NCBI GenBank assembly: GCA_045837725.1
Contig: JBEWZL010000184.1
Location: forward strand, 124,001 to 188,000
Reading direction: 5' to 3'
From: Vermamoeba vermiformis
Taxonomy: Eukaryota
DNA: 64,000 bases
Numbering within the stretch: the first letter of the stretch is position 1; the number at the start of each line of letters is the position of its first letter. The notes below the pieces were generated by a model. The model worked only from the letters and a program-made list of their open reading frames with translations, was not told the origin of the DNA and made no database searches. The translations under genes were made by a program, and so were the position numbers. Of the stretch, positions 14,213 through 54,947 are shown one piece after another.

Positions 14213-17200
14213 TCATTGTGCGAGGCCAGGCAAGTGTGCCACCATCGCTGCGCGCAGATCTGCATCGTCCTCGCACGCACCGCGCAGCACTGCAGCACGT
14301 GCTGTCACCACGTGACTCGGGGGTTGTTCCGCGAGCTGTTTGTGCGACAGTAGTGGCTCGTGATCGGTCCAAAAATAGAACACGTCTTGCACGACACGTG
14401 ACAGTGGTCGCTGGGATTTAATCCAGTGACTCCACAACTGCTGTCGCGACCACTCGTCGCCCAGGGCTGCGGAGAACACTCCGAGAGTCACGTGGCGGAC
14501 CAGGGCCCAATACAGATCGGAATTTCGCAATTCTTCAGTGACTTGCGGTGCAGCTAGCCACGTCATGGCACTTTTGACACGTGTCACAGTGAGGTCTCCA
14601 ACGAGTGCGTACAGCGGTCGAGTCACGTGACTGATCAGGGTGGTCCAGGCTGTGGCCAGTGTTGACCATATTTGGTTCGCACACTGCGCAGGAAGTGCTG
14701 TCAACAACCACGTGGCCAGGGCCTGTCCTCCAGCACCCTCTGACAGCCAAATCTCCGCAATATCTCCGAGCTTGGCTGCGGTGGTCGGTCCTGCGCTGTC
14801 GAGAGCCAAATCTCCCCTTGCGGAGATCGTTCTGATCACGTGCGCGGCCATGCTGTCAATGACTGGATCGGCGCAGATCTGTGGTCCGAGCAAGAACAGT
14901 CGACCGAGCTCTAAAAATAGCACGTCTGCGGGGTATTGTGCAAAGTCTATATTAAGTGCAAAGGTTAATGCTGTCTCAATAAATAACTGCAAAGACTTAC
15001 AGTGCGCGTTGTGTATCGACAAGAAGCACGTGACGCGAATGTATTGCTGCACAAAGTGTTGCACAAATTCTTGCAATAATTGCTCGCGTTCCGTGCTGTC
15101 CTCGCTCTCGTTCAGTGAACGGTGTGCGTAGTGCAGGGGCCAGAACAGCCACGTGCCGTTGAGTGGCAGCACGCTCTTGTCAAGCGCGATCACGTGCGTC
15201 AACTGGCCACGTGTCACAAAGTCACGTGTCAAAGTGAATGCGCGACTCTCCGTGTCAGCTGTCACCTGCGTGTCAACGGGCAGCTCGTACGGATTGAGCA
15301 CCATCCCAAAATAGAAGTCAATGAACTCCACGAGACTGTCGCGGTGCTGATCGAGTTGTGACATGATGACGTGTTGTTCACTGAATGCTGATTTCACTGA
15401 AAGGGACTCTGTGCGGCGGGACAAATCGTCAATCACGTGATCACGTGTCATCAGGTACACTTGACGGTTGAGAATCACGTGCTCGAACATTTCCAAAACA
15501 AGCAATTCATCGCCAGGCAGCAGCTGATCTACTGCGCGCATTGCCAAAGAAGGAAGTTGTTTCATGAACGAGAGATCGGTCGAGATCTGTTGGCGATGCA
15601 CCATATTTAGCAACATCACCAGGGACTGCGCTAGTCGTCTGCTCGGCACGTGCGTGAATAACTTGGGCAAAGTCTTCTTGTCCAGGGCCTTGCCAAATTT
15701 GGTAGTGAACGGCAATCGATCGTTGGTGTCGAGCAGTGTCACGAGCAGCTGTTGAAAGCTTTGCACGAGTGTTGCGTCTAAAAATAGCAACACGTTCTTG
15801 GCCTGCACTTCATCGAGCAGCTGATTGTAGTCTTCGATCAGGGCCATTACCATATATAGTAATCGCGTCACAGCGAGCACCGAGTTCTGCGCGGCGATGG
15901 AGGTCGAGGTTTGACAGCTCCATGTCAAGCAGGGCAATGTTTGCAGCCACACTGAGCCACGCAACTCGTCGGAATTACTCAGCTGCGTCACGTGTGCCAG
16001 TGACTCGCGGAATAACTTTGACTGGGTGAGGGGCGCGACATATTTGGCAATCACGTGACTGAGCTGCTGCACAGCTACTTGCACGTGTGTCACGTGATCT
16101 TCAGGCAGTTGTTTGAGGTGCTTAAAATAGCTGCTCAAAAAGTGCAAAATTGCCGCAACGGCTGTCACGTGCTCGCGAATACTTGCAAAGTCTGACTTGT
16201 TGCTGTCCACAGCTGTCAACAAACTGTCAAGTGCCAGCAGACTGGGCTGAAACAGATTCGACACGTGACTCCAGTGCAGGACGGGGCCCTGGGAGATTTC
16301 GCTGCCCTGATCGGTCGATGTGGTGGCACTGTTCACCACGGCTATTTCGAGCAGTCCTTCCAGCGCTAAAAATAGTGCAGTAGTGACGCGTGCAGGATCG
16401 CGAGCCAGAATTTCCTTTTTTGTCTGCAGATGTGTGATGTGCTCGATGATCACGTGATAGATGTCTAAAAATAGCTCGGAGGTCAGTCCGTACCGCACGC
16501 ACGTGTGCCACAGTCGCAAAGTCTGCACGGTGAGGGCCGGCAGCGACGCGTGCTGCAACAGATCACGTGGAGGGCGTACAAAATAGGCAATCACCAGCGG
16601 AAGAATTCCTTGCGCAGATTTGTTGAGATCTTCGTCGTCTGCGCGCGGGTCAGTCTCGCCTTCCTGATTTAGTAATAGCGGGGAAGCAGGGAGCAGACCC
16701 AAGAATCGTTGACAGGTGTCAAGTGACGACGCGCAACACAGCTGCAATAACTGCAAAGCTTTCGGGTGTGGTCTGTACGGCGTGTCATCGCGTGTCACAC
16801 TCTGATTGACGTGCACAAAGTCACGTGTGATGACGTGCAGCAGACGAGGGCACTAAAAATAGCACTGGTCAGTGATCGATCGGCGGAATAATTGACACTT
16901 ACGCTGAGCACGTGATTGACACCTGTCTCCGAGTGACGGGCCGCAGCGAGACAGAGATCTAAAATTAGCTCCACAATCACGTGGCTCTGCGGTCGCATCA
17001 CTTCGAGCACGTATCTGACACGTGTCAACAGCCCTGTTTGCAGCACTGCTGTCATCACGTCGCGCTGACTCAGTTCCAAATCGGTCAATTGTTCCGCTTC
17101 ACCGTCCTCTGTCACGCCGACCACGTGCTCGGAGATCAGGGGCCAGATACACGCTCCGTGCCACGTGGTTGCAATCTCGTCGTAGATCTCCGCGTCACGT

Positions 17201-50349: not shown

Positions 50350-52199
50350 TTACGATTTGCAGAACACCAGGACGTCACCACCAATCCGACCCGACGGCGT
50401 CAATGTATGGCGGAAGGCAGCACACTAACGGATATGTACATAATTAGCGCTTGTTTATAAATTGCCCTTATAACTAGACGCACCTCAGTGTAGTGATTAT
50501 CCAACAAAAAAGCCGCGACTTTTGGTGCTAGCACATTGTACATGACAAGGTGAGATGGCAGCGGTTTGTCTTTGTAGTACTGCTGCAAGAAGTTCGGTGG
50601 ATCTAGATAAAATCTGTCTGCCTCGTCAATGTAATCTTTGTCTTCAGGTCTAAAGGCATGTTAACGCTTATAACAAAATAGGCGGGCAGTACGTACCTAG
50701 GCGAGCAATCTAAAAAGTTCATCGTAATATTCTTGTGGACATAAGCGTAGTAAGGAGTCGAGTGGCAGGGCATCAAGAACATGACGTTGCTGACATCAGG
50801 GTTCTTTTGAATGTACCACATGACATCTGTCGTACCGCGTTGATGAAGAGTAGAGAAATAGAGCGCCATGCTGAGGTTCGCAACTACGAGGATCATGAAT
50901 AGTGGATGAGACAACAAGCTTCGAGAACCTTTGGCCTTGCGTGTGCTCAACATGTCCATGAAATATCCTGCGTAGATGAGCATAATGGGAAGAATTGGCA
51001 GCAAGAATCGGAATTCTTTGTGACTAATGAAGCTGAAGACGGCAATGTACCATCCCGCCGCAGCTAATAGATATTTGTTGGGGGAATACGCCGCCCCGCC
51101 AATGACTAAGGGCAGATAGGCGTGTGCAAGCGTTGGCACGGCAGCGACAATGTACCAGTACCAAGGGTGCGTGCCGTAGAAACTTCCTAAGCAATTCGTT
51201 AACTTATTATACACATCGCAAGTGGTCCTGAGAGGCAATACCTGCATCGGCAACGACGTTGAATTGAATAAAGTTCCAAATAACGAAGATCCACCGGCCA
51301 TAGAAGAGGTAATCGACAAGAAGTGAGAATCCAATTGCCAAGGCCCTACATGGTATATTAGAAGCGCTTTAAACGAAACAATCATTGTTACCCGATAGGA
51401 AGAAGATAGAATAGAGCAAATTGCAGCTTCTTTTTGAGATCTACTTTGAAGAAGTATGTCACACCAATGAATACCCATAGAACGCCATTTGTCGGTCGTA
51501 TTATGCACGCCATGGCGGCAATAGTTAAGGCGAGGAATAGGTTCTCGTTCTTATCCTTGCGCGACGAAGAAAGAGGCCAATAATAAAGTGCAGCTATTGT
51601 CAATGTTGTCTCGAGAGAGTTGCTGTAAGTTCGTACGAGGCAATAATAATTGAACCAATTCGTGAGCTGCAAAATTAACTGCGTACAATTAGAGCAAAAT
51701 CATTGTGGCGTCAGTCTTACAGTCCATTTAGCGACAGATGCAGAGAATGTTTTAAATGCCAACTTGTAGGTATAGTAATCGCATATCGCAGCGAACACTC
51801 CTTGCAGGATTTTCGGTGCTATGATCTAATACAAGAAAAATTGGATCTGATCAGTCCTGTTGCGTGTCAACAATTATTTAAAAAATTACCATTGCTCTAG
51901 CCGAATCCAGGGACAATAATTGAAGACCTTTGTATAATAAGGCGAATATTCCGGGGTGCAGGAAACTTCGTAAGCCAACTTTCCACTCCCAAGTCAAATA
52001 GCCATACCTTTGAGAAATAATGTCAAATATCATTCGTGATTTATTTAGGGTATCAAAGTTACCCGTAGATTTTGTTGTGAGCGACTTCTAAACTTTGCCA
52101 GTACTCATCCGGATCAAAAGAAGTCTGCACAATTAGCGCATTGATGATTCTAAAGGCAACAAGTAGTAAAATAAAGGAGTATTTGTTATCGAATTGCAT
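50350..52199 (-). CDS. PIGB: GPI mannosyltransferase III
   Basis: QTSFDPDEYWQSLEVAH, YGYLTWEW, RTYSNSLET, IRPTN, FYGTHPWYWY, HKEFRFLLP, HQRG and FLMPCHSTPYY. Confidence 0.95.
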
Positions 52200-52458
52200 T
52201 GTGTTGCGTAATAAATGTTTTGGCCATTAAAATCAAGAACAATGTTTTTGTACGTCAAAAAAAAAAGATTTTGTAAGTTCACCACGACGCTGAATTATAT
52301 TCAAAATTCGAGACAACGAGCCTCGATTTTTATTCAAAAGTATTCTACAGTGTTGAAGTTAGTTACAAGGTCGCTCAATAAATCCATAAATTAAAACAAA
52401 AATTATAACAATATTAAACTATGAAGACATTGTGCGAGCACAAGGCCAGCATAATATC

Positions 52459-53615
52459 TTATTCTTCGATCTTTTGCTTAATAGCTTGAGCCATCTTGAT
52501 GAAACTTTCTTCGACGCGAGTGGCAGTCTTGGCAGAAGTCTCCAAGAACAACAAGTTGTTGGCATCAGCGAACTCTTTAGCAGTCTCAAACTTGACCTTT
52601 CGTTCAGCAACAAGGTCGCACTTGTTACCGACCAACAATTTGTGAACATTCTCGCAAGCGTAACGGTCGATCTCCAACAACCACTTTTGAACGTTGTTGA
52701 ATGTCTCTGCATTTGTAATATCGTAGACGACAATAATGCCGTGAGCACCACGGTAGTAGCTGCTAGTAATAGTTCTGTTTGAAATAAAGGGGTTAGTTTA
52801 CAGCTTCGCAGGTTGGTTCCGACCGGATCGCCGTTACGAAAATTAAATTTCCGAATTACACGAGGTATATCAGTAATTTACCTGAAGCGCTCTTGACCAG
52901 CAGTATCCCAAATTTGAAGCTTAATTACGGAGCCGTCGATTTCAATGGTTCTGATTTTCTAAAGAACATCCAGTCAGCAAATTATTATTTTACGAAATTG
53001 CGTGTTACTATGAGCTTGTATAATTAATAAGCTTATATACGATTAGTATTTAGTGTAAGGACGCTAATAAAAATGTGTAAAAAGGTACTTACGAAGTCAA
53101 CACCGATAGTGCTGATGAAAGATTCGGTGAAGGTGTTGTCAGCGAAACGCAACAACAAGCTGCTCTTACCAACACCAGAATCACCAATCAACAAAAGCTT
53201 GAAGAGATAGTCACTAAATAAAAACAATAACCCGTTAGCAAAATCTGATTCACCCGAAAGAATACGTAGTTGACAATGCTTACTATTCGGGGTTGCCTGA
53301 GCCCTTGCCCGGTCGCTTGGCACCAGCGGTGGTGTTATTGGTATCGTTCTTAACAGCGAGGTTGCTATTGACTAGATTTTCAAATAAAAGTAGATTAATT
53401 TTTGTTATTGCTGAAGCGATAATAAATGTAGAAGAGCTGAATACACCAAAATAATAACTTTTAATGATAATATATTATTCGTATACCACTATTTAAATTA
53501 TTACAACGCTTTTGAGACATTTCGGTAGAAAATTTTTAAATAACGGATGTATCCAGCAAGTAACCGGTAGTTTTTAACACGTACCCTTCTTTGGTTTGCT
53601 TCCACCACAACCCAT
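52459..53615 (-). CDS. Rab1-like GTPase with N-terminal MGC extension and no C-terminal prenylation motif
   Basis: Exons 53615-53585, 53371-53284, 53213-onward. [10 protein letters not shown]...[67 protein letters not shown]. Ends IKQKIEE*. Confidence 0.92.
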
Positions 53616-53846
53616 GTTTAATTGTTGTTATGTATTGTATTAGTAACTTGAATAACGCAACAAGCCAGTTTTGTGCGTATTTGTATTCGGACCAATCCCG
53701 TTCAAGCAAGGAGATTTCAAATAAACAGAGAAAATTTGACTGTCAAAACTATGAATATCCACCCAAAACCGCGCTCCTTCTTTGCTTGGACTGGCTAAAA
53801 TAGTTTATCGGCTTTTTATTTGAATATCACCGGTACTAATTTTAGA

Positions 53847-54947
53847 ATGGCTGAGAATAAGGTGAGATTTTTTATGGTTGGATCACACATCACTTAACTT
53901 GTACGCGTGGAAATACGCTGGATCCCACTGTATTCCGGCGAAACAATTGCTATTAGTACAACGAATAAATAATGGCGTATTATTACATAAATAATGGCAG
54001 TAGAAGCCGGCCTAATTGATTATAATTTCATACAGTTCTAATATTATTAAAATAATTATTATCCGCAATAATACCGTTCTATAATTCATAATAATTAATT
54101 TAAAATATTAGGAACCTACTGTTTACAACATTCCTCCTCGTCACCTCTTTTGGGATGTGAACAGAGTTGGCATGCAGAACGAGTTCAAGCTTGGTCAGCT
54201 TTATGCTTCATTGCCTAAACCTACCGAGCAAGACTTCCAAGAATTTAAGCGATTAAACCCTGAATTAGGTACGCCTTGCAGTATTGTTTAAAAAAATTGC
54301 CGTGACTTCAATATATATATATTATTACTAATTTATCAGCAGCATTTTAACTCAATAATCTACAAAATATGGACCCACTAAATACGTTCCATTAATAATT
54401 AATTAATTAACTAGCCGAGGGAGTTGAAAAGAGAGAAAAAATGCGCGAGATCCAAACCAACGGTTCTATCGCTACTGCCGGTATTCTCGGTGTTTCTGTA
54501 TTTGCTTACGCCACTAAGGTCAAGGCTGGATTAGTTCCCTCACTGCTTTTGGGTGTTCTCAGTGGTAAGTAACCGAATTGAAGTGCATTAACAGCCCCAC
54601 TGCAGCATCACCTTGTCGCTATTCTCAGCATTCTCAAACAATTATGATATCAATGCTATTGATCGATACATATTATACTTGACGAGGACAACATAGCATA
54701 TCACTTTTGAGCGATGAAGGCACATTAATAACAGTACTCTATTCGCGCAGGTGGTTTGGGTCGCGTGATTGGTTCGGGTGTGTTCCGTGAAGTTGGTTTC
54801 TGGGCGAGTGGCTCTGATCAACTCAAATTCTCATTCCCTCACGACCCTGAACGCGCTTATGCTCGCTGGTGGAGATTGAAGAACAAAGTGCCGTTGCCTG
54901 GCTACACTGCCATTCAACCCGGCGAGGATGTTGGTGTCAAGCTCTAA
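53847..54947 (+). CDS. Two-TM mitochondrial-type protein resembling complex II subunit SDH6
   Basis: Four exons. LPKPTEQDFQEFKRLNP, two Gly/Ala-rich TM helices and AYARWW, matching the recalled plant SDH6 layout (LPxWS..DVEEF..DP, 2 TM, FMEWW). Confidence 0.55.

What the first reader, a model, noticed from the sequence alone, without database searches (positions are those of the whole stretch)
52459..53615. Rab1 paralogue with swapped membrane anchor: N-terminal MGC acylation, no C-terminal prenylation
Seen: two extra 5' exons splice in phase to give [47 protein letters not shown]..., with the usual Rab1 start Met replaced by Gly. The ORF stops right after the G domain (AIKQKIEE*), with no hypervariable tail, no CC/CxC motif and no GT donor nearby. 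Known: Rabs are normally geranylgeranylated at the C-terminus. MG-x3-S with Cys3 signals myristoylation plus palmitoylation, and this switch is known for the Rab5-family ARA6/RabF1 and apicomplexan Rab5b. Inference: an independent ARA6-like innovation in the Rab1 subfamily, with the flexible linker moved to the N-terminus. It likely works without REP/GGTase-II and possibly without GDI.
Basis: partly seen in the sequence, partly recalled or inferred. Interest (0 to 1): 0.85.

Follow-up and report, generated by a model that had tools for sequence, protein, structure and literature searches.

The report
Rab1-type GTPase with N-terminal lipid anchor
An amoeba gene encodes a Rab1-like membrane-traffic switch that has lost the usual tail lipid anchor and instead carries a fatty-acylation signal and a flexible tether at its front end, and the same design is conserved across a whole group of amoebae.

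Summary
A five-exon minus-strand gene (53615..52459) encodes a 210-aa protein starting [10 protein letters not shown] and ending AIKQKIEE. RNA confirms all four introns, the MGC exon, and a poly(A) end at 52295 with no downstream exon.

The G domain is Rab1-type: Rab1A scores 300 bits, Rab35 219 and Rab8A 218.

It is not a one-off. Of 98 short hits, 37 start with MG and lack a C-terminal Cys, 56 show the reverse, and none show both. The tether has changed ends. The family has a median 35-residue N-linker and a 3-residue C-tail. Canonical Rab1 has 7 and 30. On G-domain columns the family is one clade (bootstrap 99, SH-aLRT 97). All named members are tubulinean amoebae.

Most likely it is a myristoylated and palmitoylated Rab1-type switch that works without REP, GGTase-II or GDI, convergent with ARA6 and Rab5b. 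Lipidation, localisation and coexistence with a canonical Rab1 are untested.

I found no description in the searchable literature.

Verdict: new variant of a known kind, moderate interest.

The parts
53616..53627 (-). 5' UTR, minimum extent seen in transcript contigs
   Evidence: The X4 and X16 contigs start at 53627, and depth is zero at 53664-53774.
53585..53615 (-). Exon 1 (31 nt): start codon and the acylation motif [10 protein letters not shown]. Gly2 is the predicted myristoylation site, Cys3 the predicted palmitoylation site, followed by basic residues.
   Evidence: Translation. The junction 53585/53371 is seen in 14 (X21) and 33 (X23) reads and in 2 contigs. The motif pattern is met.
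53372..53584 (-). Intron 1 (213 nt, GT..AG)
53284..53371 (-). Exon 2 (88 nt): the variable linker (residues 11-39), predicted disordered, with a conserved hydrophobic-x-hydrophobic motif (L15-A-V17).
   Evidence: The AF2 model of orthologue P0014 has pLDDT below 50 for residues 3-36. Three of 6 strain differences here change the residue.
53214..53283 (-). Intron 2 (70 nt)
53093..53213 (-). Exon 3: beta-1, the P-loop GDSGVGKS (residues 50-57) and switch I, with family-specific S58, F68 and F72.
52959..53092 (-). Intron 3 (134 nt)
52882..52958 (-). Exon 4: interswitch and WDTAGQERF (G3, catalytic Gln102).
52775..52881 (-). Intron 4 (107 nt)
   Evidence: The junction is seen in 92 (X21) and 174 (X23) reads.
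52459..52774 (-). Exon 5: switch II ([12 protein letters not shown]), NKCD, ETSAK, helix alpha-5 ending AIKQKIEE, and stop TAA at 52461-52459. There is no hypervariable tail and no Cys.
   Evidence: In the AF2 model of P0014, helix 193-209 ends one residue before the C-terminus.
52295..52458 (-). 3' UTR ending at the poly(A) site 52295.
   Evidence: Poly(A) loose ends in 47 X21 reads and in the X4 contig.

Best explanation
This is a real, expressed gene of an amoebozoan, probably a member of Tubulinea. It encodes a Rab1-type GTPase whose membrane anchor has changed ends.

Shown:
- The G domain is intact and Rab1-like.
- The C-terminal hypervariable tail and the di-Cys geranylgeranylation motif are absent.
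- An N-terminal MGC(G)GS-K dual-acylation motif is followed by a disordered linker of about 35 residues.
- This architecture defines one conserved clade.

Inferred:
- Gly2 is N-myristoylated co-translationally, and Cys3 is then S-palmitoylated on membranes.
- The protein therefore binds membranes without REP or GGTase-II and cannot be extracted by GDI.
- Its nucleotide cycle is still run by Rab1-type GEF and GAP, because the switch regions are nearly unchanged.
- Membrane residence is governed by palmitate turnover.
- The N-linker takes over the spacer role of the lost tail.

By analogy with other dually acylated proteins and with ARA6 and PfRab5b, I expect it to act on plasma-membrane, endocytic or phagosomal, or post-Golgi membranes rather than at the ER-Golgi step. 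That last step is the weakest, at about even odds.
For: Gene model and transcripts: searches show all four junctions, the first-ATG MGC exon and a poly(A) site at 52295.

Rab1 identity: phmmer against PDB with orthologue P0014 gives Rab1A 300 bits, Rab1B 284, Ypt1 268, Rab35 219, Rab8A 218 and Rab10 212. The window protein is 77.9% identical to Pristionchus rab-1 over 172 aa. G1, G3, G4 and G5 and the RabF-type motifs [27 protein letters not shown] and VVYDIT are present (the motif definitions are recalled).

Family: of 98 hits of 260 aa or less, 37 are MG-start without a C-terminal Cys, 56 are the opposite and 0 are both. Of the 5 with neither, 4 are family rows with cut or mis-called N-termini and 1 is a canonical Rab1 with a run-on end.

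Motif conservation: M1 and G2 are invariant in 40 of 40 aligned rows and Cys3 is at least 90% conserved. Cys lies at positions 3-6 in 37 of 40 MG-start rows. A PROSITE-like myristoylation pattern is met in 35 of 37 rows and in the window protein.

Tether swap: the N-linker is 29-45 residues (median 35, n=38) and the C-tail 2-6 (median 3, n=42). Canonical rows have an N-terminus with median 7 and a C-tail of 28-34 (median 30, n=55).

Single clade: on G-domain columns only, support is UFBoot 99 and SH-aLRT 97, and the clade is present in 100% of 200 bootstrap trees. Eight diagnostic residues fit this.

Selection: 10 of 10 differences between the window and the RNA-seq strain in the G domain are synonymous.

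Linker disorder: AF2 pLDDT is below 50 for residues 3-36.

Precedent: ARA6 lacks the hypervariable region and Cys motif, is anchored by N-terminal fatty acylation, leaves membranes independently of RAB GDI and shares its GEF with canonical RAB5 (passage read in PMC3398913).
Against: - No lipidation, localisation or GDI experiment exists, and no dedicated myristoylation or palmitoylation predictor was run.
- Three of 40 MG-start rows have no Cys near the N-terminus (P0052, P0058, P0126). They would rely on myristate plus basic residues.
- With eight long-branch rows left in, the split has only SH-aLRT 80, and two long rows fall inside the family: P0385, itself MG-start without Cys, and Theileria Rab1 (P0354).
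- The trees contain no labelled Rab8 or Rab35 outgroup. Placement in Rab1 therefore rests on scores, not on a rooted tree.
- The AF2 model is mediocre (mean pLDDT 71.6, from a 40-row alignment).
- The switch I changes Y>F at residues 68 and 72 could alter partner choice.
- The raw RNA reads come from a strain 1-5% different from the window.
Confidence: 0.78

Rival explanations
1. The anchor-swapped protein is not an extra paralogue. It is the only Rab1 of these amoebae: the canonical prenylated Rab1 was replaced, and ER-Golgi traffic runs on an N-acylated Rab1.
For: No canonical Rab1 from a named family-bearing species turned up among the 120 best hits of a canonical Rab1 query; the named rows were a euglenid and chlorarachniophytes. 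No genome is held to check. The G domain is under very strong constraint. The Rheb paper notes that modified forms can replace the conventional one in that GTPase (conclusions passage, PMC5869587).
Against: Both searches list only the best 120 of thousands, so absence is weak evidence. Canonical Rab1 is close to universal (recalled). The family has eight fixed differences from canonical Rab1, including two in switch I, which is typical of a neofunctionalised copy. Nolandella already has two MG-start forms (P0035 and P0341), which shows duplication in this lineage.
Confidence: 0.1
2. The N-terminus is not lipidated, or only weakly, and the protein is a largely soluble Rab1-like GTPase or uses another membrane-binding mode such as basic residues or a partner protein.
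For: Lipidation is only predicted. Three of 40 rows lack the Cys. A conserved hydrophobic-x-hydrophobic motif in the linker could be a protein-binding site.
Against: Gly2 is invariant in 40 of 40 rows and Cys3 is at least 90% conserved, within an otherwise hypervariable linker. The myristoylation pattern is met in 35 of 37 rows. MG-start and the Cys tail are mutually exclusive in 93 of the 93 hits that carry either feature.
Confidence: 0.09
3. It is a gene-model artefact or a decaying truncated Rab1 copy: the true protein has a canonical start or tail, or the locus is a pseudogene.
Against: All junctions, the 5' end and the poly(A) site are seen in RNA from four runs of three studies. There are 43 relatives with the same architecture. 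Ten of 10 G-domain strain differences are synonymous.
Confidence: 0.02

Closest known systems
Canonical Rab1 / Ypt1 (ER-Golgi Rab)
   Same: The G domain gives the best scores to Rab1A, Rab1B and Ypt1 and is about 78% identical to nematode Rab-1. The NPEYDYLFK start of the G domain, the P-loop, the switch II sequence [12 protein letters not shown] and the RabF-type motifs are the same.
   Different: There is no hypervariable tail of about 30 residues and no CC, CCS or CxC motif; the C-tail is 3 residues against a median of 30. An N-terminal acylation motif and a 39-residue N-extension have been added. Fixed substitutions are C>S58, Y>F68, Y>F72, D>N127, KQ>QK135-136, N>H150 and T>K199.
ARA6 / RABF1 of plants and charophytes (Rab5-derived)
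   Same: [quoted passage not shown] It is independent of GDI but shares its GEF with the canonical paralogue (passage in PMC3398913).
   Different: ARA6 has a Rab5-type G domain and belongs to Archaeplastida. Here the G domain is Rab1-type and no Rab5 is among the 60 listed PDB hits. The origin is therefore separate, in Amoebozoa.
Apicomplexan Rab5b (for example PfRab5B)
   Same: It has no geranylgeranylation motif and carries N-terminal myristoylation and palmitoylation motifs (abstracts of PMC3912013 and PMC4912828, seen in the listings).
   Different: It belongs to the Rab5 lineage in alveolates and is not related by descent to this Rab1-type clade.
Rab35 (Rab1-related, plasma membrane and endocytic Rab)
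   Same: It is the next-best scoring subfamily (219 bits). That Rab35 acts at the plasma membrane and in endocytic recycling is recalled, not tested; it is the kind of role I propose for this protein.
   Different: Its score is 80 bits below Rab1. As I recall, Rab35 is prenylated at the C-terminus.
Rheb variants with changed membrane attachment
   Same: The evolutionary 'tinkering' has the same logic: C-terminal prenylation is lost and replaced by other anchors, including N-terminal acylation (abstract and passages of PMC5869587).
   Different: It is a different GTPase family. As its only Rab example of such a swap, that paper's conclusions cite the Rab5-related paralogue.

Membership tests
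Rab family (Ras superfamily) | Intact G1-G5 nucleotide-binding motifs and the five RabF motifs. | tested here: met
   GDSGVGKS, T75, DTAGQ, NKCD and SAK are present, as are [27 protein letters not shown] and VVYDIT, in the translation. The motif definitions are recalled (Pereira-Leal and Seabra, cited in PMC10913462). Precomputed Pfam families for the relatives include PF00071.
Rab1 / Ypt1 subfamily | The G domain is closest to Rab1 or Ypt1 rather than to any other Rab subfamily. | tested here: met
   Rab1A 300, Rab1B 284 and Ypt1 268 bits, against Rab35 219, Rab8A 218 and Rab10 212 (query P0014, which is 82% identical to the window protein).
Rab1 / Ypt1 subfamily | Branches within Rab1 in a phylogeny rooted with labelled other Rabs. 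| tested here: inconclusive
   The trees hold only Rab1-like rows and unlabelled representatives. They show the family as one clade beside canonical Rab1, but not its position relative to Rab8 or Rab35.
Rab1 / Ypt1 subfamily | A C-terminal hypervariable region ending in a CC, CxC or CCx geranylgeranylation motif. | tested here: not met
   The protein ends 3 residues after the IKxK column and has no Cys in the last 20 residues. The poly(A) site and the junctions rule out a further exon.
ARA6 / RABF1 group | [quoted passage not shown] | tested here: met
   This shows that it works like ARA6, not that it is a member.
ARA6 / RABF1 group | A Rab5-type G domain (descent from Rab5). | tested here: not met
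   No Rab5 is among the 60 listed PDB matches, and Rab1 is on top.
N-myristoylated, S-palmitoylated proteins | Gly2 after Met removal, a permissive residue at position 3, a small or Ser/Thr residue at position 6, and Cys near Gly2. | tested here: met
   The pattern MG[^EDRKHPFYW]xx[STAGCN][^P] (recalled PROSITE-type rule) is met by the window protein and by 35 of 37 family rows. Cys is at positions 3-6 in 37 of 40 rows.
N-myristoylated, S-palmitoylated proteins | Lipids actually attached. | not testable with these tools
   This needs metabolic labelling or mass spectrometry.

The most novel reading that the evidence does not exclude
In tubulinean amoebae the N-acylated form is the only Rab1. 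The universally conserved prenylated Rab1 would then have been replaced, so that the core ER-Golgi Rab works with no REP, no GGTase-II modification and no GDI cycle. This would be the first case of an essential LECA Rab running on an Arf- or Src-style anchor.

A milder version is that it is an undescribed, ancient extra Rab subfamily dating at least to crown Tubulinea, and the first N-acylated Rab outside the Rab5 lineage. I rate the milder version at about 0.55.
Probability: 0.1. Interest if true: 0.85.

Novelty: new variant of a known kind. Interest (0 to 1): 0.55.

Why it matters
Rab GTPases are defined in part by C-terminal geranylgeranylation and the REP/GDI cycle. In what I could search, the only documented exceptions with an N-terminal acyl anchor are Rab5 derivatives: ARA6 and apicomplexan Rab5b. 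All 24 papers found with the phrases 'myristoylated Rab' or 'acylated Rab' concern those two.

A Rab1-type clade with the same swap, in a third supergroup, shows that the change is a recurrent and viable solution. It also shows that a tether of about 30-35 residues is kept whichever end carries the lipid.

The clade offers a natural experiment on which parts of Rab1 function (GEF access, effector choice, membrane identity) depend on the GDI cycle. It may also serve as a molecular marker for Tubulinea. Switch II, including the Ser-Tyr pair that I recall as the site modified by Legionella effectors on Rab1, is unchanged. That could matter for amoeba-bacterium interactions, but this was not tested.

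Tried and rejected
- Whole-genome search for a canonical Rab1: no genome is held. A tblastn of the window found only this Rab gene.
- Search with a canonical Rab1 (P0065) to find canonical Rab1 of named family-bearing amoebae: none appeared among the 120 best. The eukprot and MMETSP rows I looked up were Ploeotia, Norrisiella and Lotharella. Coexistence is therefore left open.
- ESM Atlas look-up of P0014: it returned only generic Ras/Rab clusters and gave no help.
- Representative-library search: the 150 best were mostly fused or odd gene models, and at 50% clustering the family is merged with Rab1. It did yield two further divergent MG-start, no-Cys rows: P0341 (Nolandella) and P0385 (unnamed).
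- AF2 test of whether the conserved L-x-V motif of the linker docks on the G domain: residues 3-36 have pLDDT below 50, so there is no support for docking, though the model is weak.
- Pseudogene and mis-model readings: rejected by the RNA evidence and by conservation.
- Giant-virus origin: considered because an Atlas row was half viral. Rejected because the gene has four spliced introns and sits among housekeeping genes.
- Earlier notes of this scan: nothing relevant.
- Papers not held: Elias et al. 2012 (PMC3383260) and Porfirio-Sousa et al. 2022 (PMC9707542 and its DOI).

Full report
**1. What is there**

The finding's coordinates are the exact ends of a coding sequence on the minus strand.
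- There are five exons: 53615-53585, 53371-53284, 53213-53093, 52958-52882 and 52774-52459.
- They join in frame to 633 nt and 210 codons.
- The four GT..AG introns are 213, 70, 134 and 107 nt long, with GTAAGT-like donors.
- The product begins [10 protein letters not shown].
- A stretch of about 29 low-complexity residues leads into [21 protein letters not shown], followed by a complete Rab G domain.
- It stops three residues after the last helix (AIKQKIEE, then TAA).

**2. Transcript evidence**

One run search found DNA runs that hold the whole stretch and many RNA runs that hold about the exonic share of it. I laid two raw RNA-seq runs with the same species label as the best DNA holder (X21, X23), plus contigs of two runs filed under other organism labels (X4, X16), on 51000-54300.
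- All four junctions are confirmed at the predicted borders. Intron 4 has 92 and 174 reads, intron 3 has 79 and 165, intron 2 has 22 and 28, and intron 1 has 14 and 33 (X21 and X23 respectively).
- One spliced contig in each of X4 (832 nt) and X16 (779 nt) also carries every junction.
- The contigs start at 53627, 12 nt before the ATG. Depth is zero further upstream, and that interval holds no other ATG.
- A poly(A) tail is attached at 52295 in 47 X21 reads and in the X4 contig.
- No listed joint links the last exon to anything downstream. Eight weaker joints were not shown by the tool.
- The 'opposite strands' joints look like library artefacts.
- The next minus-strand ORF, an Alg9-like mannosyltransferase, opens at about 52199.

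Those conditions were transcripts without the MGC exon, or splicing to a CC/CxC exon.

**3. What kind of GTPase**

Spliced sequence cannot be sent to the other tools, so I searched with the last exon alone (104 aa) and then worked with database orthologues.
- P0014 is 82% identical to the window protein over all 210 residues.
- P0014 scores Rab1A 300 bits, Rab1B 284, Ypt1 268, Rab35 219, Rab8A 218 and Rab10 212 against all PDB chains.
- The window protein is 77.9% identical to a nematode Rab-1 over 172 residues.
- The nucleotide-binding motifs, the catalytic Gln and the RabF-type motifs are intact (motif definitions recalled).
- tblastn finds no other Rab in the window.

**4. It is a family, not a singleton**

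Of the 120 best hits, 98 are 260 aa or shorter.
- 37 begin with MG and have no Cys in the last five residues.
- 56 lack MG and end in CC, CCS or similar.
- None has both features.
- Five have neither. Four are family members with a cut or mis-called N-terminus, and one is a canonical Rab1 with a run-on end.

The motif is conserved within the family.
- In an alignment of 40 family rows, M1 and G2 are invariant and Cys3 is at least 90% conserved, although the rest of the linker is hypervariable.
- Cys lies at positions 3-6 in 37 of 40 MG-start rows. The three exceptions have MG plus a lysine-rich stretch.
- A PROSITE-type myristoylation pattern (recalled) is met by the window protein and by 35 of 37 rows.

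The tether has changed ends.
- Family rows have 29-45 residues (median 35, n=38) before YDYLFK and 2-6 (median 3, n=42) after the IKxK column.
- Canonical rows have a median of 7 before and 28-34 (median 30, n=55) after.

AF2 on P0014 with the family alignment predicts residues 3-36 as disordered (pLDDT below 50). The last helix runs to residue 209 of 210. The model is mediocre overall, with a mean pLDDT of 71.6.

**5. One origin**

A tree was built on G-domain columns only, with the linker and tails excluded. It held 43 family rows, 25 canonical rows and 9 representatives.
- The family is one side of a branch with ultrafast bootstrap 99 and SH-aLRT 97, and it is found in 100% of 200 bootstrap trees (the tool notes that the bootstrap had not fully settled).
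- I had dropped eight long-branch rows for this tree. With them in, the quick tree gives SH-aLRT 80.
- In that quick tree two long rows fall inside the family. P0385 is itself MG-start and Cys-less, and P0354 is Theileria Rab1, a likely long-branch artefact.
- P0341, a second MG-start Cys-less protein of Nolandella, sits on the other side.
- Eight positions separate the family from canonical Rab1 almost without overlap: S58, F68, F72, N127, Q135, K136, H150 and K199.
- Neither tree has labelled Rab8 or Rab35 outgroups, so the root and the position within Rab1 are not shown.

**6. Who has it**
- Named members are Arcella intermedia, Difflugia compressa, Nolandella sp. AFSM9 and Trichosphaerium sp. 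ATCC 40318.
- Adl et al. 2019 place all four in Tubulinea, in Arcellinida, Euamoebida and Corycida (passages of PMC6492006). NCBI files Trichosphaerium under Discosea.
- One more member is a RefSeq protein labelled Schistocerca gregaria.
- The other members come from unnamed transcriptomes and metatranscriptomes.
- A TRAP1 exon of the window finds its best named relatives in the same amoebae, and again in 'Schistocerca gregaria'. The window is therefore amoebozoan, probably tubulinean.
- No Dictyostelium, Acanthamoeba or Entamoeba protein appears among the 120 best. This is only weak evidence of absence.

**7. Constraint**

The RNA-seq strain differs from the window at many sites.
- In the G domain, 10 of 10 differences are synonymous.
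- In the linker exon, 3 of 6 change the residue.

**8. How it most likely works**

The sequence shows an intact Rab1-type switch, no prenylation site, a conserved dual-acylation motif and a disordered N-terminal tether. The rest is inferred.
- I infer co-translational myristoylation of Gly2 and palmitoylation of Cys3.
- The protein would then attach to membranes without REP or GGTase-II and could not be extracted by GDI.
- GEF and GAP control would be retained.

The direct precedent is ARA6. It lacks the hypervariable region and Cys motif, is anchored by N-terminal acylation, leaves membranes independently of GDI and shares its GEF with canonical RAB5 (PMC3398913, passage read). My guess at the site of action (plasma membrane, endocytic or post-Golgi) rests only on analogy.

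**9. Is it known?**
- All 24 papers containing 'N-myristoylated Rab', 'myristoylated Rab' or 'acylated Rab' concern ARA6-type or apicomplexan Rab5b proteins, or cite them (listing).
- No paper combines Rab, Tubulinea, myristoylation and palmitoylation.
- The Rheb 'tinkering' paper names only the Rab5-related paralogue as the Rab example of such a swap (conclusions passage).
- The Acanthamoeba Rab7 paper and the 2026 microsporidian GTPase survey do not mention it in the passages found.
- The two most relevant surveys, Elias et al. 2012 and Porfirio-Sousa et al. 2022, are not held. Supplements are closed. An earlier mention cannot be excluded.

**10. Verdict**

I correct it in one respect: this is an old, conserved amoebozoan family rather than a novelty of this genome.

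Still open:
- whether a canonical Rab1 coexists with it;
- whether the lipids are really attached;
- where the protein acts.

I class it as a new variant of a known kind, with interest 0.55.

Noticed in passing
window 53284-53371 (linker exon); family alignment: Inside the otherwise hypervariable linker, nearly all family rows keep a hydrophobic-x-hydrophobic motif about 14-22 residues from the N-terminus (L-A-V in the window; LNV, LTV, LSV or VNV elsewhere), followed by a basic, Gly/Pro-rich stretch. AF2 gives no docked conformation. It could be a partner-binding or sorting motif.
   Followed up: partly
window 52450-52454 (3' UTR) and coding SNPs: The RNA-seq strain carries a 6-nt insertion polymorphism just after the stop codon and about 17 fixed or heterozygous base differences in the gene. 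Those in the G domain are all synonymous.
   Followed up: yes
database proteins P0049 and P0130 (labelled Schistocerca gregaria): Two RefSeq proteins of the desert locust assembly are an N-acylated Rab1-type protein on a 206-kb contig and a TRAP1 homologue on a 147-kb contig. Their nearest relatives are amoebozoan proteins. They probably come from an amoebozoan associate or contaminant in that assembly.
   Followed up: no
database proteins P0341, P0058, P0126, P0052: Some relatives have MG followed by Ser/Lys-rich sequence and no Cys (myristate plus a basic patch rather than myristate plus palmitate). P0341 is a second such protein in Nolandella, besides its family member P0035.
   Followed up: partly
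window 52199-50603 (minus strand): An Alg9-like mannosyltransferase gene (Pfam Glyco_transf_22) opens only about 96 nt downstream of the Rab poly(A) site. No RNA depth was seen over its first exon in the four runs laid.
   Followed up: no
window 14213-16852 (minus strand): A long open frame of 879 aa has no Pfam match at E 1e-5.
   Followed up: no
whole window: The surroundings are an ordinary gene-dense eukaryotic neighbourhood. It holds PDS5, Vps16, SMC, an SNF2/HMG helicase, kinesin, a Sec1-family protein, TRAP1, cyclophilin, RPAP1, an NBR1-like PB1-ZZ-UBA protein and DHX37. GC content is 46%.
   Followed up: partly
runs X4 and X16 (tables 7-8): Runs filed under other organism labels hold transcript contigs at least 99% identical to this gene. 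They also hold other small-GTPase contigs that share 25-35 nt with it. The window's organism seems to occur as an associate in soil, root and biofilm samples.
   Followed up: no
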